A model generated the notes under the pieces. It had not been told where the DNA came from. It was given only the letters and a program-made list of their open reading frames with translations, and searched no databases. Position numbers and translations under genes: made by a program. This document shows, one piece after another, positions 24,201 to 54,006 of a stretch of DNA of 64,000 bases. Source of the DNA: Candidatus Falkowbacteria bacterium (GTDB taxonomy: Bacteria > Patescibacteriota > Patescibacteriia > UBA11705 > JABHMO01); contig JABHAL010000001.1 in assembly GCA_018674305.1 (NCBI GenBank), forward strand, positions 4,635-68,634, written 5' to 3'. Positions within the stretch are counted from its first letter, which is position 1. Every line of letters starts with the position of its first letter.

Positions 24201-24215
24201 TGGCTACCTCCCCTT

Positions 24216-24407
24216 CTATCCGCAAGGGCTGTCGGTCGTAACATCGACCCTAAAACCCGCTTTTTGAAGTAGCACTAGGAACAACTGACTTCCTTTATGA
24301 CCGTCCTGGGAAAAGTCCTGCAAAACTAGTCGACCGTCGATAAAGTCAATCACAACGTCATAATGACGTCTTACTTTTGGATCAAGTTTTTTGACGTTTT
24401 TTGACAT
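24216..24407 (-). CDS. small protein (63 aa), paralog of 24382..24606
   Basis: MSKNVKKL...LQKAGFRVDVTTD shares the MSK start and AG(K)(M)GFRVD motif with the neighbouring small ORF; SD-like ggaggtag before the next gene. Confidence 0.35.
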   Translation of the reverse strand: MSKNVKKLDPKVRRHYDVVIDFIDGRLVLQDFSQDGHKGSQLFLVLLQKAGFRVDVTTDSPCG

Positions 24408-24606
24408 GGACTTCCTCCACTTGAGCCTCAGGACGACGACTACCCCCTTCTTCCTCAGTATCAACCCTAAATCCCATTTTACCAGCCAACACCTTAAAAA
24501 GGGCCATCTTGGCTTGACAACGTTTTCCTCCGGGATCACCAGGACAATGAACATCCATGATCAACTTACCATCTTCGACTTTAACGTCTACAATGTCCTT
24601 GCTCAT
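24382..24606 (-). CDS. small protein (74 aa)
   Basis: ATGA start/stop overlap with the upstream 171-aa gene (translational coupling); MSKDIVDVKVEDGKLIMDVHCPGDPGGKRC...AGKMGFRVDTEEE. Confidence 0.45.
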   Translation of the reverse strand: MSKDIVDVKVEDGKLIMDVHCPGDPGGKRCQAKMALFKVLAGKMGFRVDTEEEGGSRRPEAQVEEVHVKKRQKT

Positions 24607-25118
24607 GATACGCTCACCCCCTGAAAACTGATCGACTCAATTTTCCCAGTGCTCGAATTTTGTCGCGTTGACAACTCTGAAACCTCATGACCAGTTGCTC
24701 TCATCAAAGCCAACAGAGTTTCACTCAACATCAGGTTGACAAACTCTTGTTCCAGCAAATCCGCAGCCTTAGCTGTTTCACCCTCGGCGCGATAGAATTG
24801 AACCTGACCATTGTAATTATGGACACCCACGGCCAAGCCGTAAGTCAACCCACTTGGCTTAACAACTCCACGAAATTGCGTGTTGTTATAGCTTCTGATT
24901 CTTTCACCACGATCCATCAGAGCAAGCTCAACGGTTGTGTCTACTTCATCTCGATAACGATTCAAGACTCGATCAAGGCATTCCATGATCAAGTCAGCAG
25001 AATCAAAATCTCTGGCAACTACGGCTAACTGCTCATCAAGAGCAGCTAACTCTTCCATGGCTTCTTCCACAACTTGTGGCACGTCAATACAGACACCTGC
25101 AATCAACACTCTACTCAT
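24603..25118 (-). CDS. hypothetical protein, first gene of the GC-elevated cassette
   Basis: strong SD GAAGGAGGT before the ATG; ~48% GC. Confidence 0.45.
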   Translation of the reverse strand: MSRVLIAGVCIDVPQVVEEAMEELAALDEQLAVVARDFDSADLIMECLDRVLNRYRDEVDTTVELALMDRGERIRSYNNTQFRGVVKPSGLTYGLAVGVHNYNGQVQFYRAEGETAKAADLLEQEFVNLMLSETLLALMRATGHEVSELSTRQNSSTGKIESISFQGVSVS

Positions 25119-35558: not shown

Positions 35559-37391
35559 TTACTTCTTTCGCTTAAACAACTTTTCAAGTTCACCAAATCT
35601 ATATTCCAAAAAGCAAGGTCTACCATGGACACAGGTATATTGATTTTCAAGACACTCAAGATCATTAATTAGGGCTGTCATTCCCAACTCGTTAAGCTGA
35701 TCACCAAACTTGATTGCGCTTTTGCAAGCCATCATTTTTAAAATAGTGTCAACGGGTTTACTAATTTTATCCTCAACTACAACTGGTTCAATTAACTCCC
35801 CAACAATTTGAAAAACTAATTCTTTTAGATCTACCCTAGCCAAAACCTGAGGCACCGCTGAAATCGCAAAAGTATTGTTGCCAAAATTTTCAACCTCAAA
35901 ACCCAGCTTATTCAAAAGTGAAAAATTACTATCCAATAGTTGCGCTTCCGCAGGAACTAATTCAATGTTTTGTGGCAATAACATTTTCTGACTAGCTAAT
36001 TTACCAATTTGCCACTCACGCTTAAGTTTTTCATATTGCACACGCTCTGAAGTTGCATGTTGATCATAGATTTTCAGACTCTCCGCACATTCAACAATAA
36101 TATATGAATTTTGCACTTGACCTAATATTTTAAAATCTTTATCCGGTTCACGAGATATTCCTTCTTCGCTATTGCTAAGAAGTACAGGCTCTGACTCGCC
36201 TCCTTCACGTAATCCTTCTACATCTGCGGTCTGTTGCATTATCTTATTAAAATCGGCTGAAGCCTTTTTAAATTCAGGACTTGGTTGAATAAAATCTTTT
36301 TTAATTCGAATATTACTTACCGGAAACCTTGATTGTACTGAACTTAATACTTGTTTAACTGGTATGAATTTTTTCATATCCTCAACTGGCACCTGCCGGC
36401 CAAGATCATTGTCGTCTAATGCCTTTGCAACCACTTGATAAACTGTTTTATAGATAATATGCGGCTCTGAAAATCGCACCTCAAGTTTACGAGGATGGAC
36501 GTTAACATCAATTTTCTCATTTTCAATTTTTAAGTTTAAAATATAGACGGGGTGCAACTCCTTGGACAAAAGGGTTGTATATGCCTGTTTAATTTGTTTA
36601 GCCACGATATATTCATTTACCGGTCGTTGGTTAACAAACAAATATTGTAACTTTCTATTATTACGAGCGATCTGTGGTTTACCAATAAACCCTTTAACAG
36701 AAACATTATTTAATTTTAAATCAACCTCTATTAAGTTCCCTGCAACCTCGTCGCCCAAGCAATCAGCAATGCGCTGAAACTGTCTTGCTGACGGGAATTG
36801 ATAAACTACTTTGTTATTATGAATAAGTTTCCAGGTAACCTCAGGGTAAGCCAAACAATAATTCAAAAACAAATCAACCACATGATTAAATTCAGTAACC
36901 GCAGTTTTTAAATACTTTTGCCGGGCAGGTACATTATAAAAAATATTTCTTATTTCCACACTGGTACCGTCTGCTGCTCCCGATTGTTCAGTTTTGACCT
37001 GTCCATTTTCAACTGTAACCTTCGTGCCCGCGACAGAATCACTGGTTTTACTAATTAAACAAAATTCACTGACCGAAGAAATACTTGCCAATGCTTCGCC
37101 ACGAAAACCTAAGCTACCAATATTGAATAAATCTTCCTGGCTGCCAATTTTACTAGTGGCATGCTGAACAATACTAAGCTCGGCATCCTCTTTATTCATG
37201 CCTGAACCATCGTCTGTGATTTTAATTAAGTTGATTCCTCCATTTTCTATTTCAACCTGAACATTAGTCGCTCCAGCATCAAGCGAATTTTCCACTAACT
37301 CCTTCACAACAGAAGCTGGTCGTTCAACTACTTCTCCAGCTGCGATTTTGTTGATTAGATCTTGAGGTAAAACTTTTATATTCATAAACAA
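35559..37391 (-). CDS. mutL: DNA mismatch repair protein MutL (endonuclease-type C-terminus)
   Basis: GHKL ATPase N-terminus (ELVENSLDAGAT, DDGSGM); C-terminal DQHA..E..YE and CVHGRP motifs. Confidence 0.9.
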   Translation of the reverse strand: MFMNIKVLPQDLINKIAAGEVVERPASVVKELVENSLDAGATNVQVEIENGGINLIKITDDGSGMNKEDAELSIVQHATSKIGSQEDLFNIGSLGFRGEALASISSVSEFCLISKTSDSVAGTKVTVENGQVKTEQSGAADGTSVEIRNIFYNVPARQKYLKTAVTEFNHVVDLFLNYCLAYPEVTWKLIHNNKVVYQFPSARQFQRIADCLGDEVAGNLIEVDLKLNNVSVKGFIGKPQIARNNRKLQYLFVNQRPVNEYIVAKQIKQAYTTLLSKELHPVYILNLKIENEKIDVNVHPRKLEVRFSEPHIIYKTVYQVVAKALDDNDLGRQVPVEDMKKFIPVKQVLSSVQSRFPVSNIRIKKDFIQPSPEFKKASADFNKIMQQTADVEGLREGGESEPVLLSNSEEGISREPDKDFKILGQVQNSYIIVECAESLKIYDQHATSERVQYEKLKREWQIGKLASQKMLLPQNIELVPAEAQLLDSNFSLLNKLGFEVENFGNNTFAISAVPQVLARVDLKELVFQIVGELIEPVVVEDKISKPVDTILKMMACKSAIKFGDQLNELGMTALINDLECLENQYTCVHGRPCFLEYRFGELEKLFKRKK

Positions 37392-37457
37392 ACCTTAACA
37401 TATTTTATTTAAAAAACAAAAGGGTATATTCACGTTGTGAATATACCCTTGTTAAAA

Positions 37458-37901
37458 CTACTGCAACCAACGGTAACCGTTAAATTCGTCACCATCTTCT
37501 TCGTCCTCGGCGACATCACCAAAATATGACATTCGCCGACGTACATCTTGCTTGATTCTTTCTTCCGGAATCCGAGCAAGCACTGCCTCATGAGCTCGCT
37601 CCGACAGGCGCTTCTTGTCATCTTCTGACAAAATCACTTCCGTCTCGACGACCAGGGATTCCATGAATGCCAATCGCAAGGCTTCCGCGACACGTCTGTC
37701 GACATGGTCAAATCTCGACAACCGATCTTCAATCGCCTGAATCGCGAACCTGACCAAGTCCGGTCGCTTGTCCATGAGAGTGTCTCGTACATCCCTCAAT
37801 TGCTGTACAGAACCGATTTTAAACAAATGTTCATACATAGAAGTACAACCACTTCTTCGCCGACTCTCGCAATTCTCACACTTCTTTCGCATTTCGATCA
37901 T
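37458..37901 (-). CDS. hypothetical Cys-motif protein (paralog of 38027..38638)
   Basis: C-x2-C-x7-C N-terminus then RPDL..FAIQAIEDRL; SD GGAGG; ~48% GC. Confidence 0.4.
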   Translation of the reverse strand: MIEMRKKCENCESRRRSGCTSMYEHLFKIGSVQQLRDVRDTLMDKRPDLVRFAIQAIEDRLSRFDHVDRRVAEALRLAFMESLVVETEVILSEDDKKRLSERAHEAVLARIPEERIKQDVRRRMSYFGDVAEDEEDGDEFNGYRWLQ

Positions 37902-38026
37902 CCCTTTCCTCCATCATTATAATAATTTATCAATATAGCACTATAGCACATATCCAGACTATTGTCAACATCAAGTAAAGTTAAACAAAAAAAGCACCGT
38001 ATATTTACGATGCTTAGGTAATTTAA

Positions 38027-38638
38027 CTAATGAACAAACGGTGAACCACCTCCCGAAGAACCAGGACAAGCCCCACCATCAAACATGATCTCAGCGTCAC
38101 AACCTTCTCGTTTTAGGATTCTGAGTAGTTCTTCATTAACTTTTTGACCAAGCCTTCTGATAAAATCAAAAACGGCGGCGTTATACAGAACTTCAATATG
38201 CTCAGCTCTATCAGTCAAACACTTGGCAACTTCCATTCCAAGCTCAGGTCTGTCAAACTCACACAGCAACTCAATAAATGAATGCATATGCTCATAGTCT
38301 TTTTTCATCTCCACGTAGAGCTGTTCTGCATCTGCGCCAGACAAAAAAATCTTTTTCAGACGTGCCTTAACAGCAGAGCACGTTTTCGGGGTTTCAATGA
38401 ACGTTTTCATTTGATACCGTAAACTGTCAAAGGCTGACGCATTACTCCTATCTGCCAAAGCTCTATCTTCAAGCGCCAGAATCGCCACCTTTTGCAAATC
38501 CGTACGCATGAGTAAAATAACCAACAAGGAACTTAGCATATCGTCAGGTTCAGCCATATTTACCACAGCCTGCAGTCTTGCCGTACAGTTTGCTCTGTCA
38601 TTGCAATCTTTGCAAGATTCACTCATTTCTTCCCCCAT
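38027..38638 (-). CDS. hypothetical Cys-motif protein (paralog of 37458..37901)
   Basis: C-x2-C-x6-C then RTDL..VAILALEDRAL; C-terminal CDAE...GGACPG. Confidence 0.4.
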   Translation of the reverse strand: MGEEMSESCKDCNDRANCTARLQAVVNMAEPDDMLSSLLVILLMRTDLQKVAILALEDRALADRSNASAFDSLRYQMKTFIETPKTCSAVKARLKKIFLSGADAEQLYVEMKKDYEHMHSFIELLCEFDRPELGMEVAKCLTDRAEHIEVLYNAAVFDFIRRLGQKVNEELLRILKREGCDAEIMFDGGACPGSSGGGSPFVH

Positions 38639-38748
38639 ATTAGAATGAACAAATTACAGTTTATTATATTCATCTTTTCAAAATTTGTCAATATAATTAA
38701 AAAAACGCCCCCGCATTACGAGGGCACTGAATTCAATAAAAACTTCTC

Positions 38749-39480
38749 TTAATATTCGCTTTCTCTAAACGCCTTGGCTTTTTCAGTCGGGCCGGAATAA
38801 CGTTCCTTGATTTCATCCACGCAAACATAGCTGAGCGTCCACATTTTGGCTGCCTGTTCAACAGTATAATCCGCAAAAGACTTGTCCTCTATCAATTCTC
38901 TCGTGTCTTGCTTGAAAGTGCCAACAGATCTCAAATACACATTGACACCATTGACCGAACTGCCACATTCCTGTGTTACTGATTCCGAAACAAAACCCAA
39001 CCGCAAATAATACTTTTTTCCGTCAGCCTTATCCCTAAACAGACAAAGCACGTCCGATAAATCAGTCAAGGCAGGTTGATACATCCATCCCATAAATTCA
39101 ACTTTCGACCATGGAACAAATGCTGACACCAAGTTCATCTTATCTGGAACTTCAGTCCTAAGAGATTTTACTTCCTCAAGCGAAAATCCCGGCAAACAAC
39201 GACGAGCAACAACAGGATCCAATTCCGAATTGTTCGCACGGTCATACGCGACCTCGAAGGTCTTGGAAGTATCAATGGCTTTCCTGTACGAAGGATTCTT
39301 TTCCTGAAGTAATTCAAGGTCCTGAACGCCTTGCTCAAAAGCAAGGACAATAGGATTCTTTTTTGTTTGTTCAACAACTACGGCTGACGGTGTATCAGCT
39401 TGTTTTTTTTCGACCAAGTCACAACCGTTAATCAAGAAAACTAAAAAGCAAGAAAATAACAAAACAATACATTTTCTCAT
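38749..39480 (-). CDS. hypothetical lipoprotein (start reassigned to MRKCIV behind SD GGAGGGAAAG; lipobox LINGC)
   Basis: strong SD 7 nt before the internal ATG; signal peptide with a cysteine lipobox. Confidence 0.45.
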   Translation of the reverse strand: MRKCIVLLFSCFLVFLINGCDLVEKKQADTPSAVVVEQTKKNPIVLAFEQGVQDLELLQEKNPSYRKAIDTSKTFEVAYDRANNSELDPVVARRCLPGFSLEEVKSLRTEVPDKMNLVSAFVPWSKVEFMGWMYQPALTDLSDVLCLFRDKADGKKYYLRLGFVSESVTQECGSSVNGVNVYLRSVGTFKQDTRELIEDKSFADYTVEQAAKMWTLSYVCVDEIKERYSGPTEKAKAFRESEY

Positions 39481-39714
39481 CTTTCCCTCCATAAGAAAAT
39501 AAATAACTGCTATTAATATTAACGAGAACGCCACGAATACATATTTTCGCCTCTTGCGGCTGCGCGGCGAATACGCCACCTCTTGATAATTCGCGCCATA
39601 AAAGCGACAAATAAACCAAGAAAAAATACTGGCACAAACAACCAAAAATAAGCACCAAACATTTTGACTCCTCACTAGTTGTTAAATTTCATGTTTCGGT
39701 TTATTTTAATACAA

Positions 39715-42285
39715 TTACTTGCTACCGTCAAGTTTAACCTTCAACTCCGCAATCTTTTGAAGTGCTTCAAGCGGTGTCATTTTATTAACATCAATTTTAT
39801 CTAAAGCTTTGGTGACTTTTTCTTCTTGTGGACTAATAGATAACGGCAAACTGCTTTGTTCAGCTTTTTTGCTAACTTTAATCTCAGTCTTTTTTTCCAG
39901 ACCATTCAAAATATCAGTTGCCCTGCTAATCATTTCATCAGGCAAACCTGCCAACTTAGCAACTTCAATACCATAACTTTCAGATGTAGCGCCTTTTACA
40001 ATTTTATGTAAGAAAACTACGTTACCCGCTTCTTCACTAACCGCCACACAATAATTTTCTGCGCGTTCTAATTTTTCAATAATATCTGTCAACTCATGGT
40101 AATGTGTAGCAAAAATTGTTTTAGCGCCAAGTTTATCGTGAATGTGTTCAATAATTGCCCAGGCAATACTAACGCCGTCGTAAGTGGAAGTACCACGTCC
40201 GAGTTCATCCAAGATTATTAATGATTTCTTAGTTGCATTATTTAAAATGTTAGCAGCTTCCTGCATTTCTGCCATAAAAGTGGAAACACCTTGAGTAATA
40301 TTATCTGAAGCGCCAACTCGAGTAAAAATTCGATCAACAATACCTAACTGAGCTGAATCAACTGGTACAAAGCTACCAATTTGTGCTAATAAACAAATCA
40401 GAGCCGACTGACGCAAATAACTGGACTTACCACTCATATTCGGACCGGTCAAAAGAAGAAACTCATTTTTTTTGTGGTCCATCTGCAAATCGTTAGGAAC
40501 ATAACGCTCAGTTTGAATTGCCTCAATTACTGAATGCCGACCAGCCTTAATATTAATTTCACCATTGCTGGTTATTTCAGGCTGATTATAATTATTTGAA
40601 TTAGCCAGTAAAGCAAAACCGGTTAACACATCCAACTTAGCAATAATCGAAGCTACACCTAACACATCAGAAAAATATTTAATAATCTTTTCAACAGTTT
40701 CCTGAAAAATCTGCAACTCCATGGTTTTGATTTTATCTTCAGCAGTTAAAATCTTTTCTTCGTATTCTTTTAGTTCAGGTGTAATGAATCGTTCAGCATT
40801 AACTAGAGTTTGCTTACGAGTATAATCTTCTGGAACTTGATTCAAATTGGAATTACTAACTTCAATATAATATCCAAACACTCGATTGAATTTTACTTTT
40901 AAAGATGAAATCTTAGTGCGTTCAACCTGCTTGGCCTGAAACTCTAATAACCAATCTTTACCACCACGTGAAATTTTTCTCAACTCATCCAAATCAGGAC
41001 TATAACCATCTTTGATCATCCCACCTTCAGTAATAAGAGCAGGTGGTTCCTCAATAATTATTTTATCAATAAATTCAACTACTTCTTTTAGCGGATCCAA
41101 GTTTTTATGATATTTTTGTAACAATTCTGCTTTTTTATCTTGCAATAATAGTTTTAATTCAGGAACGATCTGTAAACTTTTTTTCAAAGAAACTAAATCA
41201 CGAGCACTGCCTCGCCCACAACCCAACCGACCAATTAATCTTTCTAAATCCGCGATTTGTTTTAATTTTTCTTGAATACTTTTTATTACAGTTGTCTGTT
41301 CTTTGATTTCGGCCACAGCCTGCAGTCGACGGTTTATTTTATCTTCGTCCAAAAGTGGCAATATCAGCCAGCGCCGTAAACGTCGCCCACCCATACTGGT
41401 TACAGTTTTATCAATAACTGAAAGTAAGCTTCCCTCATATCCAGCGGTGTTGGCAGTTTGAAATAATTCCAAGTTCCGGACGGTCGCTTCGTCCAAAACC
41501 ATATAATTTTGAAAACTAAATCTTTGTATACGGGTAATATGACTTAAATCACTTTTTTGAGTATCTTTTAAATAACCCAGCAACAATCCTGCCGCTTCAA
41601 TACCAATTGGTAATTCTTCAACACCGAAACTTTGTAAATTTTTTACTTTAAACTGTTTAATCAAAAGTGCATATGCCTTTTGAAAAACTGACAATTGAAA
41701 AACATTAACATTGGACAAAGAACTTATAAATTCTTTATACCGAGTATCATTGAATAACTCTTGGTTAATTATTATTTCCGAAAAATCAAACCGGTAAATT
41801 TCATTCTTCAATAAACTTAAATCCAATACTTCTGCCACTCGAAATTCACCTGTAGTCAAATCTGCAATCGCCAAACCCCAAGTATTTTTCTGAAAAGTCA
41901 AAGCGGCAATAAAATTATTACTTTTATTATTTAAAGTTGAGTTAACTAAAGTCGTACCAGGTGTAACGACCTGCACAACTTCCCTCTTTACAATACCCGG
42001 TAAGCTTGCGTCACCAACTTGATCACAAATAGCCACTCGCTGACCAGCTCTTAATAATTTAGCTAAATAATTTTCTAAAGCATGATGAGGAATTCCACAC
42101 ATGGGCATTTCATTTGAAGAACCCTTGTGCCTAGCAGTCAAAACAATATCCAAAATAGCTGAAGCTTTTTTTGCATCCTCTCCAAACAATTCATAAAAAT
42201 CACCTAACCTAAAAAACAACAACTCATTCGGATGCTTTTCTTTTATTTCATTGTATTGCCTTAACATTGGAGTTAATTCGGCCAT
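39715..42285 (-). CDS. mutS: DNA mismatch repair protein MutS
   Basis: GPNMSGKSSYLRQ Walker A, DELGRGTSTYDG, N-terminal mismatch-binding domain. Confidence 0.95.
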   Translation of the reverse strand: MAELTPMLRQYNEIKEKHPNELLFFRLGDFYELFGEDAKKASAILDIVLTARHKGSSNEMPMCGIPHHALENYLAKLLRAGQRVAICDQVGDASLPGIVKREVVQVVTPGTTLVNSTLNNKSNNFIAALTFQKNTWGLAIADLTTGEFRVAEVLDLSLLKNEIYRFDFSEIIINQELFNDTRYKEFISSLSNVNVFQLSVFQKAYALLIKQFKVKNLQSFGVEELPIGIEAAGLLLGYLKDTQKSDLSHITRIQRFSFQNYMVLDEATVRNLELFQTANTAGYEGSLLSVIDKTVTSMGGRRLRRWLILPLLDEDKINRRLQAVAEIKEQTTVIKSIQEKLKQIADLERLIGRLGCGRGSARDLVSLKKSLQIVPELKLLLQDKKAELLQKYHKNLDPLKEVVEFIDKIIIEEPPALITEGGMIKDGYSPDLDELRKISRGGKDWLLEFQAKQVERTKISSLKVKFNRVFGYYIEVSNSNLNQVPEDYTRKQTLVNAERFITPELKEYEEKILTAEDKIKTMELQIFQETVEKIIKYFSDVLGVASIIAKLDVLTGFALLANSNNYNQPEITSNGEINIKAGRHSVIEAIQTERYVPNDLQMDHKKNEFLLLTGPNMSGKSSYLRQSALICLLAQIGSFVPVDSAQLGIVDRIFTRVGASDNITQGVSTFMAEMQEAANILNNATKKSLIILDELGRGTSTYDGVSIAWAIIEHIHDKLGAKTIFATHYHELTDIIEKLERAENYCVAVSEEAGNVVFLHKIVKGATSESYGIEVAKLAGLPDEMISRATDILNGLEKKTEIKVSKKAEQSSLPLSISPQEEKVTKALDKIDVNKMTPLEALQKIAELKVKLDGSK

Positions 42286-42448: not shown

Positions 42449-42844
42449 TTAAGCTTGTTCTTTTTTTCCTTGGTCTTCCGTAGCTTCAAGCGAAGGAAGG
42501 TCTTCCTCAACAGGAGTTTCTTCAAGTGGGATAGCTTCAATCTGCTCTTCCTTTAACTCTTCAGCCCATTCTTCTTGTTTATCTTCATCCTTAGAAACCG
42601 CAGGTTCTTCAACTTTCTCTGCAGGGGCACTCTCTGCTACTGCTGATGTTGGAATAGTTGGTGCAGTTGGTCTAGCAGTCTCTTTACCACTATCAAGATC
42701 CTTGACTGATTCTTCCCCAATCTTATCTTCACATTTATTACAATAATCTGGATTTTTTGCAGATTTTTTTACTCCAGCAAGACCTGAAATCTTTGCCCAA
42801 AATCCTTCAATTGGAGCACTACAGGCTTTACATTTTTTAGACAT
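42449..42844 (-). CDS. zinc-ribbon protein with acidic disordered tail
   Basis: CKAC...CNKC N-terminal ribbon, Glu/Pro-rich C-terminus. Confidence 0.4.
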   Translation of the reverse strand: MSKKCKACSAPIEGFWAKISGLAGVKKSAKNPDYCNKCEDKIGEESVKDLDSGKETARPTAPTIPTSAVAESAPAEKVEEPAVSKDEDKQEEWAEELKEEQIEAIPLEETPVEEDLPSLEATEDQGKKEQA

Positions 42845-42958: not shown

Positions 42959-45900
42959 TTATTTGATCTGCACACTATCAGCCTTGGAATAATTAATTAT
43001 TGATGGACTATTACTAGATTGAATAGTTACCGGCTCAGCTCGGTATTCACCAAGAGCAGCTACTCGAGCATAGTACTTAAAGTAGTTTAGACCTTTACAC
43101 GGTTGCCAATTCTTATTCATACCAAACTTTATCTTCTGATCATTAATTTCGTAAGGATAACGTAGACCACACCAACTCCTAATACCAATTGAGTAAGGTC
43201 TAGTTACGCCTTTCAAACCACTTGGTAAAATATCGGTTATTTGATAATAACCATCGACCGAATCAACAGAAATCTGAGGATATAAACGAACCTCAATTAT
43301 ATCTCCAGCTGAAAAATGATTAACCTGCTGACCATCCACATAATATTGACGGTCAACTGACACATACTGACTAAATGCCTGATCAGTTACTTTTTCTTGA
43401 TAAATACTGGTTACGCCAATATCACCTTGTACGTCCTCAATTTTTAGCCTAGCCAACTGTTCAGGTAATAAGTCTAGCTTGAAGTTTTGACCATTTTCTA
43501 ATTCTTTTTTGTATTTTTTCCCATCAACGTTAACAGTGAAACTAACTGGCCCAACATTCAAGGTTGGCAGACGCTTTGTCAAATAATTAACTTCTTCTAA
43601 ATTGATCAAGACATCTTTAGTCCGGTGATCTGCCAGATAAGACCAAAGCCCTTTATGATATGGGTCATTCAGACCAGCTGCCAACACAGCAGCTAAACTT
43701 GTTGCCTGCAAAACATCATCTTGATCTTTGCCAGTTTTAATTCGGACATAAGAATCTAATTCTTCAGCATTTTCTTTCATTACCTCTAGATAAAGTTTAC
43801 GACCAAGTTCACGATCACCGATCTCAAATGCTGCCAATGCAATATATAATTTTTCTTTAACAGTAACATCTTCAAGTGTCGCAATATTTTGAATTGGCAA
43901 AAGCACAGGCTCTCCCAATCCAGCTAATCCGTAAAGGGAAATAATTACTTCCTCCTGACTAGACTCTTCTGAATTTAGTTTTGTGTAAAAATACTTTGAC
44001 AAAGAAACTTTATCAAATTCAGCCCCTGCAATTGAAGCAACTTTGGCACTCAATTCAAAGTCACTTGAACTATAAGGCAATAAAGTCAAACCACCTTTAC
44101 TCTCCTGATAAGTAGCTGAATTAAAGTTATCTACTTTGTATTCCTTACTGAAATACTGCTTAAATAACTTTTGAGCGGCAACTTTGGAAACTCTCTGGTC
44201 CAACCGATCTCCGTACTGCCAACTTAATCGAAGTAGTCGATGATAAAGCTGTCCAATACTCTCGTCCATAAAAACTAGAGTTGTTCTGTCCGTTGCCGAA
44301 CCAGAAATTTCCACGCCTGACTCATACTTATAATAATCCTGCACTTCTTTGGTCAACAAACTTTCAGCCACAGCAAATTTATTTATCAAGGTATCTTCAA
44401 GTTCACCCTTTTTGGCAGTTGAACTAATTTCATACTGTCCAACGCCAACTTCCCCTAGCGCTACGCTTAAAGCATCAAAAGCTTCCGTTTGTTTAACTAT
44501 TTTATTCAAGTCTAATGCTTCAGAACTAATTTCATAATCAATCACATCACCTGAAGTTAAAGTTTCACCATATGTTCGTAACTGCATAACAGGAGAATCC
44601 CCTTCCAAAAACTTATCTGGTAAAGTTGAGTTTATAAACAAAGGAAGACTAACCGGCAAGGCTGTTACCTCTCTACCAGCGTAAATATCCTTATTAATTG
44701 CCTGCGTAGTAATTCGCCATGAGGTTATATTATCAGGTAATTCAAATCTAACAGTTGCGCGACCAAATAAATCAGTCTTGGCCATTTTGAATAAAGCAGT
44801 ATCCTGAAAGTCTTCTCGCGCTCCACCTTTGTCATTGTGAACAAAGAAACCTTCTGCGAAATATGTGTGATATTTTTCAATATGTAAATTATAAACATCA
44901 ACCATTTGACCGAATCTCTCAATGCTCTCAATTTTAACTCTTTGACCAAATTCATCTAATAAATAATCACCTACTTTAGACTGACCAATCATCTGCCAAC
45001 CATTATTAACAAATACTCTATGCTCAGGAGTAACCCGCAACTTCCCATTAATTAGGTAATAGCCATAAACTGTATGCTCAAAAGTGTTTAACACTTTAGC
45101 TCTAACTAATTTCTTCGATAGCGGATCACTAAAAGTTAAGATCTCATCACCAATCTGAATTTCTTCAATATTCTTGTATGAGCCGTCAGCCATCTTGATC
45201 TGGGTACCAGCCACAAAACAACCGCCCATACCACTCGCATCAGGCGCCAAAGACAATGCTTCATGGGAAGCATAAGTCGTTTTTAGTCCAGCACTTTCCA
45301 ACTGATATACACTGGCCAAAATATCTGCCCAATCTTCGCTCAGCTGAAAAAAGGCTTCATCAACCAAACTTAAATTCAAAGTTGCTGCAACCGGATTTCC
45401 TTTTTGATTAGTAACTTTAACTTCTAATTCCACATCCTCACCTGGTGCATACTCCTCCTTATTTGAAGTAACTTCAACATTTAATTCTTTTTCTGAATAA
45501 TCATATCTGATTGATGTTCCACTGCTAGAACTATACCAATTGTTACTTCCGCTCTGATGATATTTCTCACCATCAAACCAAACTCCACTAACATAAATAT
45601 TTGGAATATAGCTATCCTTGAAGTTAAATTCGTAAACTGGTTCAGTTGACAATGAATAGTCAACTAGACCACGTCGCATCTTGTAGTACAAATAATCTTT
45701 CTTTTCCTGAGAAGATAAAATATCATTATTTTTTGTGAATTCCAAAATCACACTCTCGTCTACCTTAAACTTAACTTTATCACCCTTAATTGCCAACTTA
45801 TAATATTCGTAATTATTGGAACTATATGGATTGCCATAATATGAAGAGCCATACATTTGAGTGGATAAATAATTATTCCCTTGCTCATCAATGGCAATCA

Positions 45901-48505
45901 AGCGAATTTGGTAATAACTCTTTTCTTCAGTTTCAAATTCATAAGTAAACTCACCTGCGGCATCAGTTAAACCTGACATCTCATGAATAACTTTTTCTTC
46001 TTTTTCGTACTTGTATTTTTTATTAACGACCTTATTAATATAATCATACTCTTCACCAATTTCATTCTTGTGCCAAATTATTTGGATAATTTTACCTTTA
46101 ATAGCTGTATTTGGCGCCACTTCTTCCTCATCAACAACACTCCAAAGACTCCCTTTGGCCCTTTTCTCTAAATCGTATTTTTTCACTGTGGCCTTTATTT
46201 TTGCTGTTAATGAATTCTTTTCTTTTGGCGCAACTTCCATCTTGGTATAAACACGAGAGTTATAAGTATAGACATAAGCTGTTTGATTAATCTGTGCCAC
46301 TTCCGGTTGCGTTGAATTCAAATTTAAGTATACTGTTTGCATGTTGGAACAATATGTTTTTTCTAAAGTACACTTAGTCGCGACTGATGGCACCTCGATA
46401 CGCGCCTCACCAGCTAAGTCAACCTCGACTTCTCCTTTCACAGACTTATTACTGGAACTATAATCTAAAACTAAATCTGACACGGGAGTACCTTCAAAAA
46501 ATTCCGCATTAACATCAAAAACTGCAGTTTCTCCGGACCAAATCACTTTATTCTCTGGCTCAACCTTGATTTGATATGCTGGTTTATCGTAAGTCTGAAT
46601 ATTAATGTACTTAGTAGACAAAATCTCATCACCAAGTCTAACGTCCACATAATAATAACCCGGGACTAACTTTTCAAGCTTCAACTCACCAGAATAAACA
46701 AAATCAGGAGACACTTCAAGTTCTTGTTCTGCCAAACTTATTTCTTCATTATAATAATTATAATAACGAGCATAACTATTTTGCCGCAAAGCAACTGTAA
46801 CTTTTTCATCAATCCCCTTTGAATCCTTGGGTTTTACAAATCCCCAAAATTTAATAGTATCGTCAGGTTGAAATAAATTTCGATCAGTGTAAAAATATTT
46901 CCAATACTCTTTTTGCTCTTGTTTAGAAAAACTAACAGGAACAATAGTTACATCACCATCTTTTCGAACCCTCAAGTAGTCAGTCTCATATCGATCTTCC
47001 TCGCTAAAAACAAAAGCTGTGTCGGTATTAAATTTAGTAATTCCTTGACCGTCAGTACTTTTAGTAATTCCACTGGAAATTATTTTAACCTCAGCATTTT
47101 GAACTGACCCTTTATCCACAATACTATTAACCCAAACTAGGCTTTCACTGGTAGACACCATAGAAAATACTGCTAATTCACTAACTGAGAAAAAAGTCTG
47201 TCTTTTCACGTCCTGAACAGTTGATTCAATGACATAAAACCCCGGTTCATATACTTCTGGAAAAACTATAAACTTATTGTAATTAACTTCTCGAACTTCC
47301 AATTCATAGTCAGTTATATGACTAAGGGTATTAGTGTCAACCAAAGAAGACTCGCGATTATAGCTTGCCCAAGCAGGATAATCATATCTACTTTTCAGCG
47401 CCTCTAAATAAGCTGTATCATTGGCCAAGGAATAAACATTTAACTTAATTTTACTATCAAGTAAATTTCGTTCGTAAACTTTGAAGGCTGGCTCTCTAGT
47501 TGGAGAAAATTCTAGATAATCACCGATAATCATGAAGTAAGGTTTATTATTTGAACCTCGCTTATAATTTACCAATGGACTGGTCTCAAATTGCAGGGTG
47601 TAATCTTTTACCATTTTTTCATCTGACTCCGACAAAGGTAACTCCTTGTCTACAATTATTCTGTAAATAGTACCAGGCATTAAATTCTTGGGTACAAAAA
47701 CCCAAGTTCTTTTATGCTTTTCGAAACTTCCATCAACCTTTGGTTCAATTGTAAAATGTTTAGCAAACTCTTCCACATTGTCATGACTGAAAGTAAATTC
47801 AATTCCTGTATCAAGTGGTACCCCAGAACTTTTATCACGAGGCAAAGAGCCGATAATTTTGAATTGGTCTTTAGTTTGAAACGCCCAAGAATAATCTTGT
47901 TCAAATGTTAAACCGCTTTCTGCCATAATAGAGGCCGAAATTACAACACTATAAACAACTCGTGGTTGCAATGGTTCACTTGGAATAATCTTAAACTCAT
48001 GATCATTTACTTTTTTAAAACTAAACTCTAATTCAGGTTTGATCTGAATATTCTCTTCCAATAATTCTGAATCTACGACTTCTTTACTTTTAATAACAAA
48101 AGCAGTGTCCGACTCAACGCCAATACTATCACTAACTGTCGCCTCAACTGTAAAATTATCCTGCGCGTATGCTGGACTAATTATAAGTCGAGAAAATTCA
48201 CTGAAAGGTGAATCTTGGCCAGGCCAGTAATGACTAGCTGTTACAAGTAAAGCAAAAATCACCAGAACAGCTAGAACTGGAGATAAGCGCCTGACAGTAA
48301 AAAGTGAAGAAAATCCTTTTACAAAATTTAGCATATGTTTTTTTTGCTGCCGTTTTTCTAGGATCTTCGATTTTAATGCATAACGAAAATCATCAGAAGC
48401 AGGCTCATTTTTAAATTGTGCTTTTTTTAGCATACTCTCTGCTTCCTGTAACGGATGATTTTCACTTTTATTACGTTTTTTATTGTTATTGTTGTAATTT
48501 TGCAT
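42959..48505 (-). CDS. giant (1848 aa) surface protein: anti-sigma-like cytoplasmic N-terminus, TM, MG/Ig-like repeats, embedded Hint domain, alpha-2-macroglobulin-like TED region (no CGEQ)
   Basis: start 3 nt after the ECF sigma stop; TM LSPVLAVLVIFALLVTA at ~aa 75-95; LSLVDEAFFQL and ITSWRITTQAIN resemble A2M-family motifs; C...HN Hint domain. Confidence 0.6.
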   Translation of the reverse strand: MQNYNNNNKKRNKSENHPLQEAESMLKKAQFKNEPASDDFRYALKSKILEKRQQKKHMLNFVKGFSSLFTVRRLSPVLAVLVIFALLVTASHYWPGQDSPFSEFSRLIISPAYAQDNFTVEATVSDSIGVESDTAFVIKSKEVVDSELLEENIQIKPELEFSFKKVNDHEFKIIPSEPLQPRVVYSVVISASIMAESGLTFEQDYSWAFQTKDQFKIIGSLPRDKSSGVPLDTGIEFTFSHDNVEEFAKHFTIEPKVDGSFEKHKRTWVFVPKNLMPGTIYRIIVDKELPLSESDEKMVKDYTLQFETSPLVNYKRGSNNKPYFMIIGDYLEFSPTREPAFKVYERNLLDSKIKLNVYSLANDTAYLEALKSRYDYPAWASYNRESSLVDTNTLSHITDYELEVREVNYNKFIVFPEVYEPGFYVIESTVQDVKRQTFFSVSELAVFSMVSTSESLVWVNSIVDKGSVQNAEVKIISSGITKSTDGQGITKFNTDTAFVFSEEDRYETDYLRVRKDGDVTIVPVSFSKQEQKEYWKYFYTDRNLFQPDDTIKFWGFVKPKDSKGIDEKVTVALRQNSYARYYNYYNEEISLAEQELEVSPDFVYSGELKLEKLVPGYYYVDVRLGDEILSTKYINIQTYDKPAYQIKVEPENKVIWSGETAVFDVNAEFFEGTPVSDLVLDYSSSNKSVKGEVEVDLAGEARIEVPSVATKCTLEKTYCSNMQTVYLNLNSTQPEVAQINQTAYVYTYNSRVYTKMEVAPKEKNSLTAKIKATVKKYDLEKRAKGSLWSVVDEEEVAPNTAIKGKIIQIIWHKNEIGEEYDYINKVVNKKYKYEKEEKVIHEMSGLTDAAGEFTYEFETEEKSYYQIRLIAIDEQGNNYLSTQMYGSSYYGNPYSSNNYEYYKLAIKGDKVKFKVDESVILEFTKNNDILSSQEKKDYLYYKMRRGLVDYSLSTEPVYEFNFKDSYIPNIYVSGVWFDGEKYHQSGSNNWYSSSSGTSIRYDYSEKELNVEVTSNKEEYAPGEDVELEVKVTNQKGNPVAATLNLSLVDEAFFQLSEDWADILASVYQLESAGLKTTYASHEALSLAPDASGMGGCFVAGTQIKMADGSYKNIEEIQIGDEILTFSDPLSKKLVRAKVLNTFEHTVYGYYLINGKLRVTPEHRVFVNNGWQMIGQSKVGDYLLDEFGQRVKIESIERFGQMVDVYNLHIEKYHTYFAEGFFVHNDKGGAREDFQDTALFKMAKTDLFGRATVRFELPDNITSWRITTQAINKDIYAGREVTALPVSLPLFINSTLPDKFLEGDSPVMQLRTYGETLTSGDVIDYEISSEALDLNKIVKQTEAFDALSVALGEVGVGQYEISSTAKKGELEDTLINKFAVAESLLTKEVQDYYKYESGVEISGSATDRTTLVFMDESIGQLYHRLLRLSWQYGDRLDQRVSKVAAQKLFKQYFSKEYKVDNFNSATYQESKGGLTLLPYSSSDFELSAKVASIAGAEFDKVSLSKYFYTKLNSEESSQEEVIISLYGLAGLGEPVLLPIQNIATLEDVTVKEKLYIALAAFEIGDRELGRKLYLEVMKENAEELDSYVRIKTGKDQDDVLQATSLAAVLAAGLNDPYHKGLWSYLADHRTKDVLINLEEVNYLTKRLPTLNVGPVSFTVNVDGKKYKKELENGQNFKLDLLPEQLARLKIEDVQGDIGVTSIYQEKVTDQAFSQYVSVDRQYYVDGQQVNHFSAGDIIEVRLYPQISVDSVDGYYQITDILPSGLKGVTRPYSIGIRSWCGLRYPYEINDQKIKFGMNKNWQPCKGLNYFKYYARVAALGEYRAEPVTIQSSNSPSIINYSKADSVQIK
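44834..45220 (-). other. Hint / bacterial intein-like (BIL) domain, 129 aa, embedded in the giant protein
   Basis: GMGG|CFVAGTQIKMADG...HIEKYHTYFAEGFFVHN|DKGG: N-terminal Cys, block-A-like start, C-terminal His-Asn; the +1 residue is Asp, so a BIL-type cleavage module rather than a splicing intein; coordinates +/-1 nt. Confidence 0.6.
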
Positions 48506-48508
48506 AAA

Positions 48509-49042
48509 TTATTTATGTAAACTTTTGAATTTATTTAAGGCTCGATAAAGTAAAACTCCCACATTATTTGCTGAAATATGCATCGTTTCGGCAATCTCCT
48601 GATTGGACAATTCAGCGAAATACTTCAAATTTACCACCTGTTGATAACGGCCGGACATTTTCTGAATAATCTGCATAACCTTTTTCTTATCTTCTAAACT
48701 CATTAAATATTCTTCTGTAGTTTGTTTAATTTCCGCTGGTTCAGTTATGTCTTCAATATCCACCTTTGTATTTTTTAATTCTTTGCGATAATAATCAATT
48801 AAATTATTAGTGGCAATTTTATAAACCCAGGACTTAAATGATCCTTTACGTGGATTAAAATTCTTTAAACCACAAAAAACCTTGGTAAAGGTTTCTGAAA
48901 CAATATCCTCAGCAATTTCACGTTTACCACAACGCTTAAATACATAGCCGTAAATTTTATCAAAATAAAAATCATACAAGACACCAAAAGCCTGGTGATC
49001 ATGTACTGCATCTTTGACCAGTTGTTTTTCATTTTCCAACAT
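48509..49042 (-). CDS. ECF-type RNA polymerase sigma factor (sigma-70 regions 2 and 4)
   Basis: YDFYFDKIYGYVFKRCGKREIAEDIVSETFTKVF (region 2) and LSNQEIAETMHISANNVGVLLYRAL (region 4 HTH). Confidence 0.8.
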   Translation of the reverse strand: MLENEKQLVKDAVHDHQAFGVLYDFYFDKIYGYVFKRCGKREIAEDIVSETFTKVFCGLKNFNPRKGSFKSWVYKIATNNLIDYYRKELKNTKVDIEDITEPAEIKQTTEEYLMSLEDKKKVMQIIQKMSGRYQQVVNLKYFAELSNQEIAETMHISANNVGVLLYRALNKFKSLHK

Positions 49043-53613: not shown

Positions 53614-53676
53614 GTTAAATCAATAAACAATGATAACTTATCTTTTTAACTACAACATTTGAAGGAGATCAGAAAG

Positions 53677-54006
53677 ATGTCTAGCAGAAAGGAAACTCGG
53701 GTAGAAAAAGAGGCTCGGCTCGAAGCAACGGCTATTGCCAATGCGGCAGCTGGAAAGGTTGCCAACGCAGCCTCCACGGCCATCCTGGCCCAGGAACTGT
53801 TCGACGATGAGTTTGAGCGGGTTTACGAGGAAGCTTACCGCGACATTCTGCAAGATAAGCAGAATAAGGAGTTCTTCAGCGCTTGCGATGAGGATCCGCT
53901 TTTCAATGATGATCTTCAGAAAGAGCACGAGGAACTGTACTTCGCGAACCTCGCAGCTGAACAGGGTATTGCAAGGCCTCCGATCAATAAGGCCATCGAA
54001 GCATAA
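53677..54006 (+). CDS. small acidic protein (109 aa), ~52% GC
   Basis: ATG 7 nt after GAAGGAGA; Ala-rich then acidic (EELFDDEFERVYEEAYRD...); GC ~20 points above background; terminator follows. Confidence 0.5.
   Translation: MSSRKETRVEKEARLEATAIANAAAGKVANAASTAILAQELFDDEFERVYEEAYRDILQDKQNKEFFSACDEDPLFNDDLQKEHEELYFANLAAEQGIARPPINKAIEA

What the first reader, a model, noticed from the sequence alone, without database searches (positions are those of the whole stretch)
37392..39714. GC-rich three-gene insertion splitting mutL from mutS, with two Cys-motif paralogs and a lipoprotein
mutS and mutL are usually adjacent. Here a 2.3-kb block of ~48% GC sits between them. It encodes two paralogous proteins (C-x2-C-x6/7-C followed by a conserved [RK][PT]DL..[FV]AI.A.EDR.L helix; one ends in CDAE..GGACPG) and a lipoprotein with a very strong SD (GGAGGGAAAG). 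The shared Cys ligands suggest Zn-binding regulators, possibly anti-sigma or redox-sensor-like. The composition suggests horizontal acquisition into the mismatch-repair operon.
Basis: partly seen in the sequence, partly recalled or inferred. Interest (0 to 1): 0.6.

Follow-up and report, generated by a model that had tools for sequence, protein, structure and literature searches.

The report
Fast-evolving cysteine-motif genes beside mutL
Between the DNA-repair genes mutS and mutL of an uncultivated Candidatus Falkowbacteria genome sit four small genes of unknown function (two related cysteine-motif proteins, a tiny membrane peptide and a secreted lipoprotein-like protein); the cysteine-motif genes are a rapidly diverging fixture of this spot in a few related lineages, not a recent foreign insertion.

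Summary
The block is real: 2,323 bp separate mutS (39715-42285) from mutL (35559-37391), all on the minus strand. Its GC is 41.0%, not ~48%; only orfA reaches 48.4% (window mean 36.4%). It holds four genes, not three: a 47-aa membrane peptide, a 243-aa lipoprotein-like secreted protein, orfB (199/203 aa) and orfA (147 aa).

orfA and orfB are true but distant paralogs. They share an N-terminal CxxC-x5/7-C knuckle, an R-x-D-L...EDR helix and an acidic tail with a hydrophobic end.

No Pfam, NCBIfam, PHROG, PADLOC, PDB-sequence or Foldseek match exists. Exhaustive searches of billions of proteins found five lineages carrying the family, and in each the gene lies directly upstream of mutL. A sister lineage (MutL 89% identical) has the same four genes at the same site.

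The genes evolve fast but under purifying selection (dN/dS 0.15-0.18, against 0.05 for mutL). orfA and orfB keep near-consensus promoters, and terminators follow orfA, orfB and the lipoprotein gene.

So this is a clade-specific resident cassette, not a recent island. The function is unknown. My best guess is a metal-binding (Fe-S or Zn) adaptor or regulator. A GC excess confined to the coding regions (GC3 83% in one relative) remains unexplained.

The parts
39715..42285 (-). mutS (856 aa), upstream boundary of the block
   Evidence: Pfam MutS_I-V, E down to 7e-84
39703..39731 (-). promoter-like site (TTGACG-17-TAAAAT, 10/12) overlapping the mutS stop; candidate promoter of the small-ORF/lipoprotein pair
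   Evidence: a consensus match only
39519..39662 (-). 47-aa single-pass membrane peptide (MFGAYFWLFVPVFFLGLFVAFMARIIKRWRIRRAAARGENMYSWRSR), preceded by GAGGAG
   Evidence: Frame translation. 51% identical to the 48-aa ORF at the same place in L003, E=2e-13. No Pfam hit.
38749..39480 (-). 243-aa secreted lipoprotein-like protein (MRKCIVLLFSCFLVFLINGC...), SD GGAGG 5 nt before the ATG
   Evidence: Ortholog in L003 is 23% identical, E=5e-11. The signal peptide is conserved, NGC is conserved and four mature-domain Cys are conserved. No other homolog in 5.8e9 proteins. dN/dS about 0.65. NCBI calls it 243 aa.
38704..38728 (-). intrinsic terminator after the lipoprotein gene (11-bp stem plus T7)
38663..38691 (-). 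orfB promoter, TTGACA-17-TATAAT (12/12)
   Evidence: A 12/12 site stands at the same place in L003. The -35 to 5'UTR stretch is about 95% identical.
38027..38638 (-). orfB, a Cys-knuckle helical protein (203 aa from ATG 38638; the likely true start is ATG 38626, giving 199 aa behind GGGGGAAG)
   Evidence: 59% identical to P0002. dN/dS 0.15.
37992..38015 (-). intrinsic terminator after orfB
   Evidence: Conserved in L003 with 1 mismatch in 24.
37940..37968 (-). orfA promoter, TTGACA-17-TATAGT with an extended-10 TG (11/12)
   Evidence: 12/12 plus TG in L003.
37458..37901 (-). orfA, a Cys-knuckle helical protein (147 aa), SD GGAGG
   Evidence: 59% identical to P0004. dN/dS 0.18. AF2 pLDDT 70.9, all-helical.
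37420..37450 (-). strong intrinsic terminator (14-bp stem) between orfA and mutL, ending about 25 nt before the mutL start region
   Evidence: Conserved in L003. An analogous hairpin lies between P0008 and mutL in L034.
35559..37391 (-). mutL (610 aa from TTG; probably the ATG at 37385), downstream boundary
   Evidence: Pfam HATPase_c_3, DNA_mis_repair and MutL_C

Best explanation
The block is a clade-specific, vertically retained and rapidly diverging accessory cassette. It occupies the mutS|mutL spacer in one subclade of Candidatus Falkowbacteria (CPR/Patescibacteria).

Its constant element is a previously undescribed family of small cytoplasmic all-helical proteins. They have an N-terminal tri-cysteine knuckle (CxxC-x5-C[TS]), two invariant arginines (RxDL...EDR) and a disordered acidic tail that ends in two hydrophobic residues plus H/N/Q. 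A member always sits immediately 5' of mutL. In the window lineage the family is duplicated (orfB, orfA).

The slot next to mutS is variable. Here it holds a 47-aa membrane peptide plus a very fast-evolving secreted lipoprotein-like protein. Elsewhere it holds a ~475-aa helical protein.

orfA and orfB are each a monocistronic unit with a near-consensus sigma-70 promoter and its own terminator.

Inferred, not shown: the knuckle binds a metal centre, either an Fe-S cluster with a non-Cys or inter-subunit fourth ligand, or Zn. The proteins then act as abundant sensor or adaptor proteins that dock on a partner through the acidic tail. The terminator after orfA leaves mutL dependent on read-through or on a weak -10-only promoter, which would help to fix the gene next to mutL.

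The stated confidence (0.45) is for the whole statement. The descriptive part (a resident clade-specific cassette and a new Cys-knuckle family) would rate about 0.85. The metal-binding adaptor or regulator mechanism would rate about 0.35.
For: Shown:
- Same gene order in the sister lineage L003/L002/L001: mutS, 48-aa ORF, lipoprotein, orfB homolog, orfA homolog, mutL, infA, rpsM and onward.
- The exhaustive profile search of 1.84e9 representatives returned only five proteins (P0002, P0004, P0006, P0007, P0008). All are encoded directly upstream of mutL, and P0008 sits in mutS-477aa-P0008-mutL-infA-rpsM... on a 236-kb contig.
- The family is present only where MutL is at least 62% identical to the window's. 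mutS and mutL are adjacent in the 55%, 39% and 37% relatives.
- Invariant residues are C8, C11, C19, R46 and R60, and every member has an acidic tail.
- dN/dS is 0.15-0.18, so these are real, constrained proteins. dN is 6-7 times that of mutL.
- Promoters and terminators are conserved in L003 and present in L034. The spacers are 84-90% identical while the coding regions are 65-67% identical.
- The AF2 model of orfA is a helical bundle, pLDDT 80-91 over residues 21-100, with a disordered tail.
- No flanking repeats.

Precedent for CX2CX5C as three ligands of an Fe-S cluster: Dna2 (PMC3439918), and RseC, whose N-terminal CX5CX2CX5C has its last three Cys conserved (PMC11729352). P0007 and P0008 carry a fourth Cys (C-x2-C-x2-C-x5-C).

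No sigma-70-like site scoring at least 9/12 lies between the orfA terminator and mutL.
Against: - Metal binding, the partner and any regulatory role are all untested.
- There are only three invariant Cys and no conserved fourth ligand.
- The knuckle is modelled at pLDDT below 55.
- No fold or sequence relative gives a functional anchor.
- The GC excess confined to the coding regions, extreme in L034 (61% GC, GC3 83% on a 36% background), is not what simple vertical descent predicts. It leaves room for repeated horizontal replacement.
- dS in orfA and orfB (about 1.8-1.9) is twice that of the flanks (about 0.9), although NG86 is near saturation there.
- A conserved TAAAAT lies downstream of the orfA terminator and could be mutL's own weak promoter (read by eye).
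- Homology between the short family and the ~475-aa neighbours rests on the in-register N-terminal motif and the position only (hhalign E=0.019, probability 2.4%).
Confidence: 0.45

Rival explanations
1. Horizontally acquired islet. The cassette, or just its ORFs, has been imported into the mutS|mutL slot from higher-GC relatives, possibly more than once, and is now being ameliorated.
For: - The coding regions are GC-richer than the flanks in every lineage. orfA has GC3 51% against 27-29% in the flanks, and L034 has GC3 83% and 61% against 29%.
- Higher-GC Falkowbacteria exist. L007 is 48% GC and carries a CxxCx5C protein in the same slot.
- dS in the cassette is twice that of the flanks.
- Other GC-rich ORFans occur in the window.
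- The content of the slot differs between lineages.
Against: - The same genes lie at the same site in the sister lineage and in lineages down to 62% MutL identity.
- The spacers and the adjacent ends of mutS and mutL are host-like in GC, with transitions exactly at the coding-region ends.
- There are no repeats, no integrase or transposase gene in the block, and no viral-contig relative of the lipoprotein.
- No higher-GC donor homolog appeared among 1.84e9 representatives.
Confidence: 0.25
2. Accessory factor of mismatch repair. The Cys-knuckle protein works with MutL or MutS, for example as a redox- or Fe-S-dependent modulator or adaptor, which would explain why it is always next to mutL.
For: A member lies immediately 5' of mutL in five lineages while the rest of the slot turns over. 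Fe-S clusters are common in DNA-repair proteins with the CX2CX5C signature (Dna2, PMC3439918). The acidic tail with a hydrophobic end resembles docking tails of genome-maintenance proteins (my own knowledge, not tested).
Against: - The gene has its own strong promoter and a strong terminator separates it from mutL, so there is no operon.
- Relatives with a normal MutS and MutL lack it.
- It evolves 6-7 times faster than MutL, which is unusual for a partner of a conserved machine.
- The whole region is syntenic (mutS-mutL-infA-rpsM...), so a conserved position needs no functional link.
Confidence: 0.12
3. Conflict or interaction module. The fast-evolving secreted lipoprotein and the small paralogous cytoplasmic proteins are immunity-like, anti-phage or host-interaction genes under an arms race.
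For: The lipoprotein ortholog is only 23-25% identical where MutL is 89-92% identical, with dN/dS about 0.65 and conserved Cys that suggest disulfides. There are tandem paralogs, a lineage-restricted distribution, strong promoters and a foreign-looking composition.
Against: There are no PADLOC, PHROG or Pfam immunity or toxin hits for any member or neighbour. orfA and orfB are under clear purifying selection (dN/dS 0.15-0.18). Contigs from independent samples are 99.9-100% identical, so there is no ongoing hypervariation. The lipoprotein pair occurs only in the window and L003 lineage, so it is not part of the constant core.
Confidence: 0.13
4. ZAS-type anti-sigma factor or DksA/TraR-like zinc-finger regulator.
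For: The proteins are small, cytoplasmic and helical with an N-terminal CxxC. An ECF sigma gene lies 9 kb away (48509-49042).
Against: No member has the H-x3-C-x2-C or the CxxC-x17-CxxC pattern. No Pfam hit to zf-HC2, DksA or any other family appears even at E<=1. The gene directly downstream of the ECF sigma gene encodes a membrane-anchored 1848-aa protein, the usual position of the cognate anti-sigma.
Confidence: 0.04
5. Spurious or decaying ORFs in a long spacer.
For: None beyond the lack of annotation ('hypothetical protein').
Against: The ORFs are intact in two lineages despite about 35% nucleotide divergence. dN/dS is 0.15-0.18. SD sequences, promoters and terminators are conserved. Residues are invariant across five lineages.
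Confidence: 0.02

Closest known systems
WhiB-like (Wbl) [4Fe-4S] proteins of Actinobacteria and their phages
   Same: Small (about 80-150 aa), mostly helical and cytoplasmic. They carry a C-x2-C-x5-C triad, occur as multiple fast-diverging paralogs in monocistronic genes, and act by docking on a partner (sigma-A). This description of Wbl comes from my own knowledge.
   Different: The upstream fourth Cys is missing in 5 of 7 members. There is no G[VI]WGG turn. The tail is acidic rather than basic. The triad is at the extreme N-terminus. There is no Pfam Whib hit. The phylum is different.
RseC N-terminal cysteine motif (CX5CX2CX5C, last three Cys conserved; PMC11729352) and the H-x3-C-x2-C-x5-C [4Fe-4S] site of [FeFe]-hydrogenase/NuoG N-terminal domains
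   Same: The C-x2-C-x5-C spacing is identical and sits at the N-terminus with only three conserved Cys. This is precedent that the triad can hold an Fe-S cluster with a variable fourth ligand. P0007 gives a weak, non-significant hit to PF22609, E=0.06.
   Different: RseC has two transmembrane helices. The hydrogenase site has His at -4. Neither feature is present here, and the rest of the proteins is unrelated.
ZAS anti-sigma factors (RsrA type)
   Same: Small helical cytoplasmic Cys-containing proteins that could sense redox state.
   Different: The defining H-x3-C-x2-C motif is absent and there is no adjacent sigma factor gene.
Mosaic mutS-rpoS intergenic region of E. coli (PMC4209514)
   Same: A slot beside mutS whose gene content differs between lineages while the flanks stay conserved.
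   Different: Here one family is retained in the slot across lineages, next to mutL. The variation is between deep lineages, not between strains.

Membership tests
ZAS anti-sigma factor (zf-HC2) | H-x3-C-x2-C zinc motif | tested here: not met
   The residue four positions before the first Cys of the CxxC is M, K or G, never H, in all 7 members (alignment A2). No Pfam hit at E<=1.
ZAS anti-sigma factor (zf-HC2) | Co-transcribed with, or adjacent to, a cognate ECF sigma gene | tested here: not met
   The neighbours are mutS and mutL. The nearest ECF sigma gene is at 48509-49042, 9 kb away, with a different downstream partner.
DksA/TraR C4 zinc finger | CxxC-x17-CxxC four-cysteine finger after a coiled coil | tested here: not met
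   There is only one CxxC, at the N-terminus, and no second CxxC is conserved. No Pfam hit.
WhiB-like Fe-S proteins | Four invariant Cys, C-Xn-C-X2-C-X5-C | tested here: not met
   Three Cys are invariant. Only P0007 and P0008 have a fourth Cys upstream.
WhiB-like Fe-S proteins | G[VI]WGG turn and a basic C-terminus; Pfam PF02467 | tested here: not met
   The motif is absent. The tails carry a net charge of -3 to -6. No Pfam hit.
Fe-S or Zn metalloprotein (generic) | Bound metal centre ligated by the conserved Cys | not testable with these tools
   Only the motif and its invariance are shown. This needs spectroscopy or ICP-MS.
Bacterial lipoprotein | Signal peptide with a basic n-region and a hydrophobic h-region | tested here: met
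   MRK followed by CIVLLFSCFLVFLI, conserved in L003.
Bacterial lipoprotein | Lipobox [LVI][ASTVI][GAS]C | tested here: inconclusive
   The sequence is L-I-N-G-C in the window and L-F-N-G-C in L003. N at -2 is outside the usual set, but the motif is conserved. No SignalP or LipoP was available, and lgt/lspA were not looked for.
Recently acquired genomic island | Compositional deviation from the host | tested here: met
   Weakly met for the block as a whole (41.0% vs 36.4%, +1.8 SD). Clearly met only for orfA (GC3 z=+2.6).
Recently acquired genomic island | Mobility genes or flanking direct repeats (att sites) | tested here: not met
   There are no flanking repeats. The block holds no integrase or transposase gene. 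Its ORFs give no significant Pfam hit, and orfA, orfB and the lipoprotein give no significant PHROG hit.
Recently acquired genomic island | Absent from the same site in close relatives | tested here: not met
   The sister lineage (MutL 89%) has all four genes. Lineages at 62-69% keep a family member next to mutL.

The most novel reading that the evidence does not exclude
Two readings go beyond 'hypothetical proteins'.

(a) The Cys-knuckle protein is a CPR-specific Fe-S or redox-sensing partner of MutL, fixed next to mutL because it tunes mismatch repair, and hence mutation rate, in these reduced genomes.

(b) The GC enrichment confined to the coding regions (up to GC3 83% inside a 36%-GC genome, with host-like AT-rich promoters and terminators between the genes) marks a process not yet described in CPR bacteria. 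This could be either ORF-precise cassette replacement between lineages using the conserved regulatory spacers as anchors, or strong local GC-biased conversion.
Probability: 0.12. Interest if true: 0.75.

Novelty: new variant of a known kind. Interest (0 to 1): 0.42.

Why it matters
About half of CPR/Patescibacteria genes have no known function, and the ones that stay in place yet diverge quickly are good candidates for lineage-specific biology.

This family is tiny (five lineages among billions of proteins). It is always next to mutL and carries a clean three-cysteine metal-type motif. It is expressed from textbook promoters, which makes it an easy target for expression and spectroscopy.

If it proved to be a MutL-linked Fe-S sensor, it would add a regulatory layer to mismatch repair in organisms with minimal genomes. 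If the GC excess reflects ORF-precise cassette exchange, it would document a route of gene flow in CPR bacteria.

If neither holds, it is one more lineage-specific hypothetical family. In that case the practical result is a corrected annotation: four genes rather than three, and revised start codons.

Tried and rejected
- **Family libraries.** Pfam, NCBIfam, PHROG and PADLOC scans of orfA, orfB, orfC, the small ORF, P0006-8 and the long neighbours gave nothing significant.
- **Solved structures, by sequence.** A PDB sequence-profile search gave a best E of 1.8.
- **Structure of orfB.** AF2 with a 4-sequence alignment gave pLDDT 54.6, which is unusable.
- **Structure of orfA.** AF2 gave pLDDT 70.9. 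Foldseek against PDB (best E=0.6, TM below 0.5) and against BFVD (best E=0.08, TM 0.2) returned only generic helical repeats.
- **Short family versus the ~475-aa neighbours.** hhalign was inconclusive, and an HMM of the family found no further member in any fetched locus or elsewhere in the window.
- **Mobile-element signatures.** No flanking repeats were found.
- **Viral contigs.** The lipoprotein has no relative there, and the family alignment was too divergent to scan with.
- **Ongoing hypervariation (DGR or phase variation).** Rejected: contigs from independent samples are 99.9-100% identical.
- **Non-coding RNA.** Rfam finds only the L10 leader elsewhere in the window. Nothing credible turned up in the ORF-free 1.2 kb of L007 or in the GC-rich spot at 53.6-54.0 kb, and the window holds no tRNA or tmRNA.
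- **A second copy of the Cys motif in the window.** None found.
- **Literature on Falkowbacteria plus mismatch repair.** No paper found.
Full report
**What is there**

All genes in this part of the window run on the minus strand. mutS (39715-42285) and mutL (35559-37391) are verified by full sets of Pfam domains. The reported interval 37392-39714 is exactly the gap between them.

The organism is a low-GC (36.4%) Candidatus Falkowbacteria (CPR/Patescibacteria). The identical proteins are in NCBI as 'hypothetical protein [Candidatus Falkowbacteria bacterium]'. The nearest genome-collection hits for MutL are Falkowbacteria and Patescibacteria MAGs at 55-61% identity.

**Composition**

- The block is 41.0% GC, not ~48%.
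- By gene: orfA 48.4%, orfB 43.1%, orfC 41.2%. The two spacers are 28-30%.
- Windows of 2.3 kb across the 64-kb window average 36.4% with SD 2.5%. The richest (44%) lies at 21.3-23 kb.
- At gene level only orfA is an outlier: GC3 0.51, z=+2.6.

**Gene content**

There are four genes, not three.

- In a different frame from the 308-aa GTG-start ORF lies a 47-aa ORF (39519-39662). It has one hydrophobic helix and a basic tail, and is preceded by GAGGAG. It is 51% identical (E=2e-13) to a 48-aa ORF at the same place in a relative.
- The lipoprotein-like gene therefore starts at ATG 39480 (243 aa), five bases after GGAGG. NCBI annotation uses the same start.
- Its signal peptide ends L-I-N-G-C. 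This is a conserved but atypical lipobox, with N at position -2.
- orfB most likely starts at its second ATG (38626, 199 aa). That ATG follows GGGGGAAG and aligns with the start of its ortholog.
- orfA and orfB each have a near-consensus promoter: 12/12 TTGACA-17-TATAAT before orfB, and 11/12 with an extended -10 TG before orfA. A weaker 10/12 site precedes the small-ORF/lipoprotein pair.
- Hairpin-plus-T terminators follow the lipoprotein gene, orfB and orfA.

**Paralogy**

orfA and orfB align over their first ~58 residues at 28% identity, E=2e-5. Relatives from other lineages bridge them:

- P0008 vs orfB, E=5e-8
- P0008 vs orfA, E=2.5e-6
- P0004 vs orfB, E=3e-5

The seven-sequence alignment has invariant C8, C11, C19, R46 and R60 in orfA numbering. 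The spacing is CxxC-x5-C in six members and x7 in orfA. A T or S follows the third Cys. The conserved helix is R-x-D/E-L...[ED][DE]R. Every member has an acidic, predicted-disordered tail that ends in two hydrophobic residues plus H/N/Q: WLQ, FVH, LLH, FLN or LPN.

**Distribution**

The family is very rare.

- The word-indexed search of 5.8e9 clusters found only the window's own proteins and one 59%-identical relative each.
- The exhaustive profile search of 1.84e9 representatives added three more: P0006, P0007 and P0008.
- Every one is encoded directly upstream of mutL.
- The sister lineage (L001-L006; MutL 89-92% identical) has mutS, a 48-aa ORF, the lipoprotein, the orfB homolog, the orfA homolog, mutL, infA, rpsM and onward.
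- The P0008 lineage (MutL 62%) has mutS, a 477-aa ORF, P0008, mutL, infA, rpsM and onward on contigs up to 236-254 kb.
- The P0007 lineage (MutL about 68%) has mutS, a 474-aa ORF, P0007, mutL.
- In P0006's short contig the gene is followed by the mutL N-terminus.
- In L007/L013/L014 (MutL 61%; genome 48% GC) the slot holds 369-, 98- and 522-aa ORFs.
- The 522-aa protein of L007 and the 477-aa protein of L034 begin with the same CxxCx5C motif in register. Their homology to the short family is not statistically established (hhalign E=0.019, probability 2.4%; HMM E>1).
- More distant relatives have mutS and mutL adjacent (L008/L018, L021, L023) or unlinked (L009, L017).

The simplest reading is one acquisition, or origin, in the ancestor of a Falkowbacteria subclade. 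Retention next to mutL followed, with tandem duplication in the window lineage and turnover of the mutS-proximal slot.

**Evolutionary rate (window vs sister lineage)**

| Gene | aa identity | dN | dS | dN/dS |
|---|---|---|---|---|
| mutL | 92% | 0.044 | 0.91 | 0.048 |
| murJ | – | 0.033 | 0.85 | – |
| orfB | 59-61% | 0.28 | 1.9 | 0.15 |
| orfA | 59-61% | 0.32 | 1.8 | 0.18 |
| lipoprotein | 25% | ~1.0 | – | ~0.65 |

- orfA and orfB are therefore genuine, constrained proteins that change 6-7 times faster than MutL.
- The lipoprotein is close to neutral or under diversifying selection. It keeps its signal peptide and four mature-domain cysteines.
- The spacers with the promoters and terminators are 84-90% identical, as conserved as the flanking genes.
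- Contigs of each lineage from independent samples are 99.9-100% identical, so there is no ongoing hypervariation.

**Function**

Nothing known matches.

- Pfam, NCBIfam, PHROG, PADLOC and PDB sequences give no significant hit for any member or neighbour.
- The AF2 model of orfA (pLDDT 70.9; 80-91 over residues 21-100) is a helical bundle with an unmodelled knuckle and a disordered tail.
- Foldseek finds only generic helical repeats in PDB and BFVD.
- The defining motifs of ZAS anti-sigma factors, DksA/TraR fingers and WhiB-like proteins are not met.
- The CX2CX5C spacing is a recurrent three-ligand signature of [4Fe-4S] sites (Dna2, PMC3439918; RseC N-terminus, PMC11729352). Two members have a fourth Cys three residues upstream.

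I therefore infer a metal knuckle, Fe-S somewhat more likely than Zn, on a helical body that docks through the acidic tail. That would make these abundant sensor or adaptor proteins. This is inference, not demonstration.

No site scoring at least 9/12 for sigma-70 lies between the strong orfA terminator and mutL. mutL may therefore depend on read-through or on a weak conserved TAAAAT. That would help explain why the gene stays glued to mutL without any functional link to repair.

**What remains unexplained**

In every lineage the cassette coding regions are GC-richer than their flanks, while the spacers are host-like and AT-rich. In L034 the contrast is extreme:

- 61% GC and GC3 83% for the 477-aa gene
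- 52% GC and GC3 61% for P0008
- 36% GC and GC3 29% for the flanks
- transitions exactly at the coding-region ends

This is not what simple vertical descent predicts, nor what a simple island looks like. The same window holds other GC-rich ORFans, at 21.8-25.1 kb and at 53659-54006.

**Verdict**

The 'recent HGT into the MMR operon' reading is not supported for this genome, although an older or repeated horizontal origin cannot be excluded.

The proteins form a new, very narrow family without known relatives. Interest is moderate. It comes from the strict linkage to mutL, the clean motif, the textbook expression signals and the odd GC pattern. It is tempered by the fact that lineage-specific hypothetical genes are common in CPR genomes.

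Noticed in passing
window 42959-48505 (-): An 1848-aa alpha-2-macroglobulin-like surface protein is interrupted at about aa 1090-1224 by a Hint/intein-like module (PT-HINT, Intein_splicing). The module starts CFVAGT and ends VHN followed by D, not by a C/S/T nucleophile, so it looks more like a bacterial intein-like or pretoxin HINT domain than a splicing intein. The gene lies directly downstream of an ECF sigma gene (48509-49042).
   Followed up: partly
window 21798-25118 (-): A second GC-rich islet (44-46% GC). It holds an 800-aa protein with a C-terminal AAA+ ATPase and an unassigned ~500-aa N-terminal part, plus two ORFans of 112 aa (GC3 0.55, z=+3.0) and 171 aa with no Pfam hit.
   Followed up: partly
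window 53659-54006 (+): An isolated 115-aa helical, acidic ORFan at 51% GC (GC3 0.57, z=+3.3) on the opposite strand to almost all other genes. It sits in an otherwise ORF-poor 1.2-kb gap between alaS and mnmA. No Pfam or credible Rfam match.
   Followed up: partly
L034 1301-3639 (also L035, L036): In a relative with 36% GC flanks, the two genes between mutS and mutL are 61% GC (GC3 83%) and 52% GC (GC3 61%). The spacers are AT-rich and the boundaries are sharp at the coding-region ends. The 477-aa gene carries a full-length antisense ORF, expected at this GC3.
   Followed up: partly
L007 8790-9977: A 1.2-kb stretch without ORFs between the 522-aa gene and mutL in Falkowbacteria RIFOXYC2_FULL_48_21. 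No Rfam family reaches threshold and no remnant of the short Cys family was detected.
   Followed up: partly
L010 1876-3720: A Parcubacteria relative has its own, unrelated 1.85-kb set of small ORFs between mutS and mutL (one gives a weak nSTAND3 hit, E=4e-4). The mutS|mutL spacer has therefore been colonised independently in another CPR lineage.
   Followed up: no
window 42449-42844 (-): A 131-aa protein directly upstream of mutS with an N-terminal CxxC...CxxC zinc ribbon and a long acidic, Pro/Glu-rich tail. It gives only sub-threshold Pfam hits (DUF2321, E=0.002).
   Followed up: no
window 38749-39675 (-): Annotation discrepancy. JGI/IMG and some assemblies call a 308-aa protein from GTG 39675, which swallows the conserved 47-aa membrane-peptide gene in another frame. 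NCBI PGAP calls the 243-aa form.
   Followed up: yes
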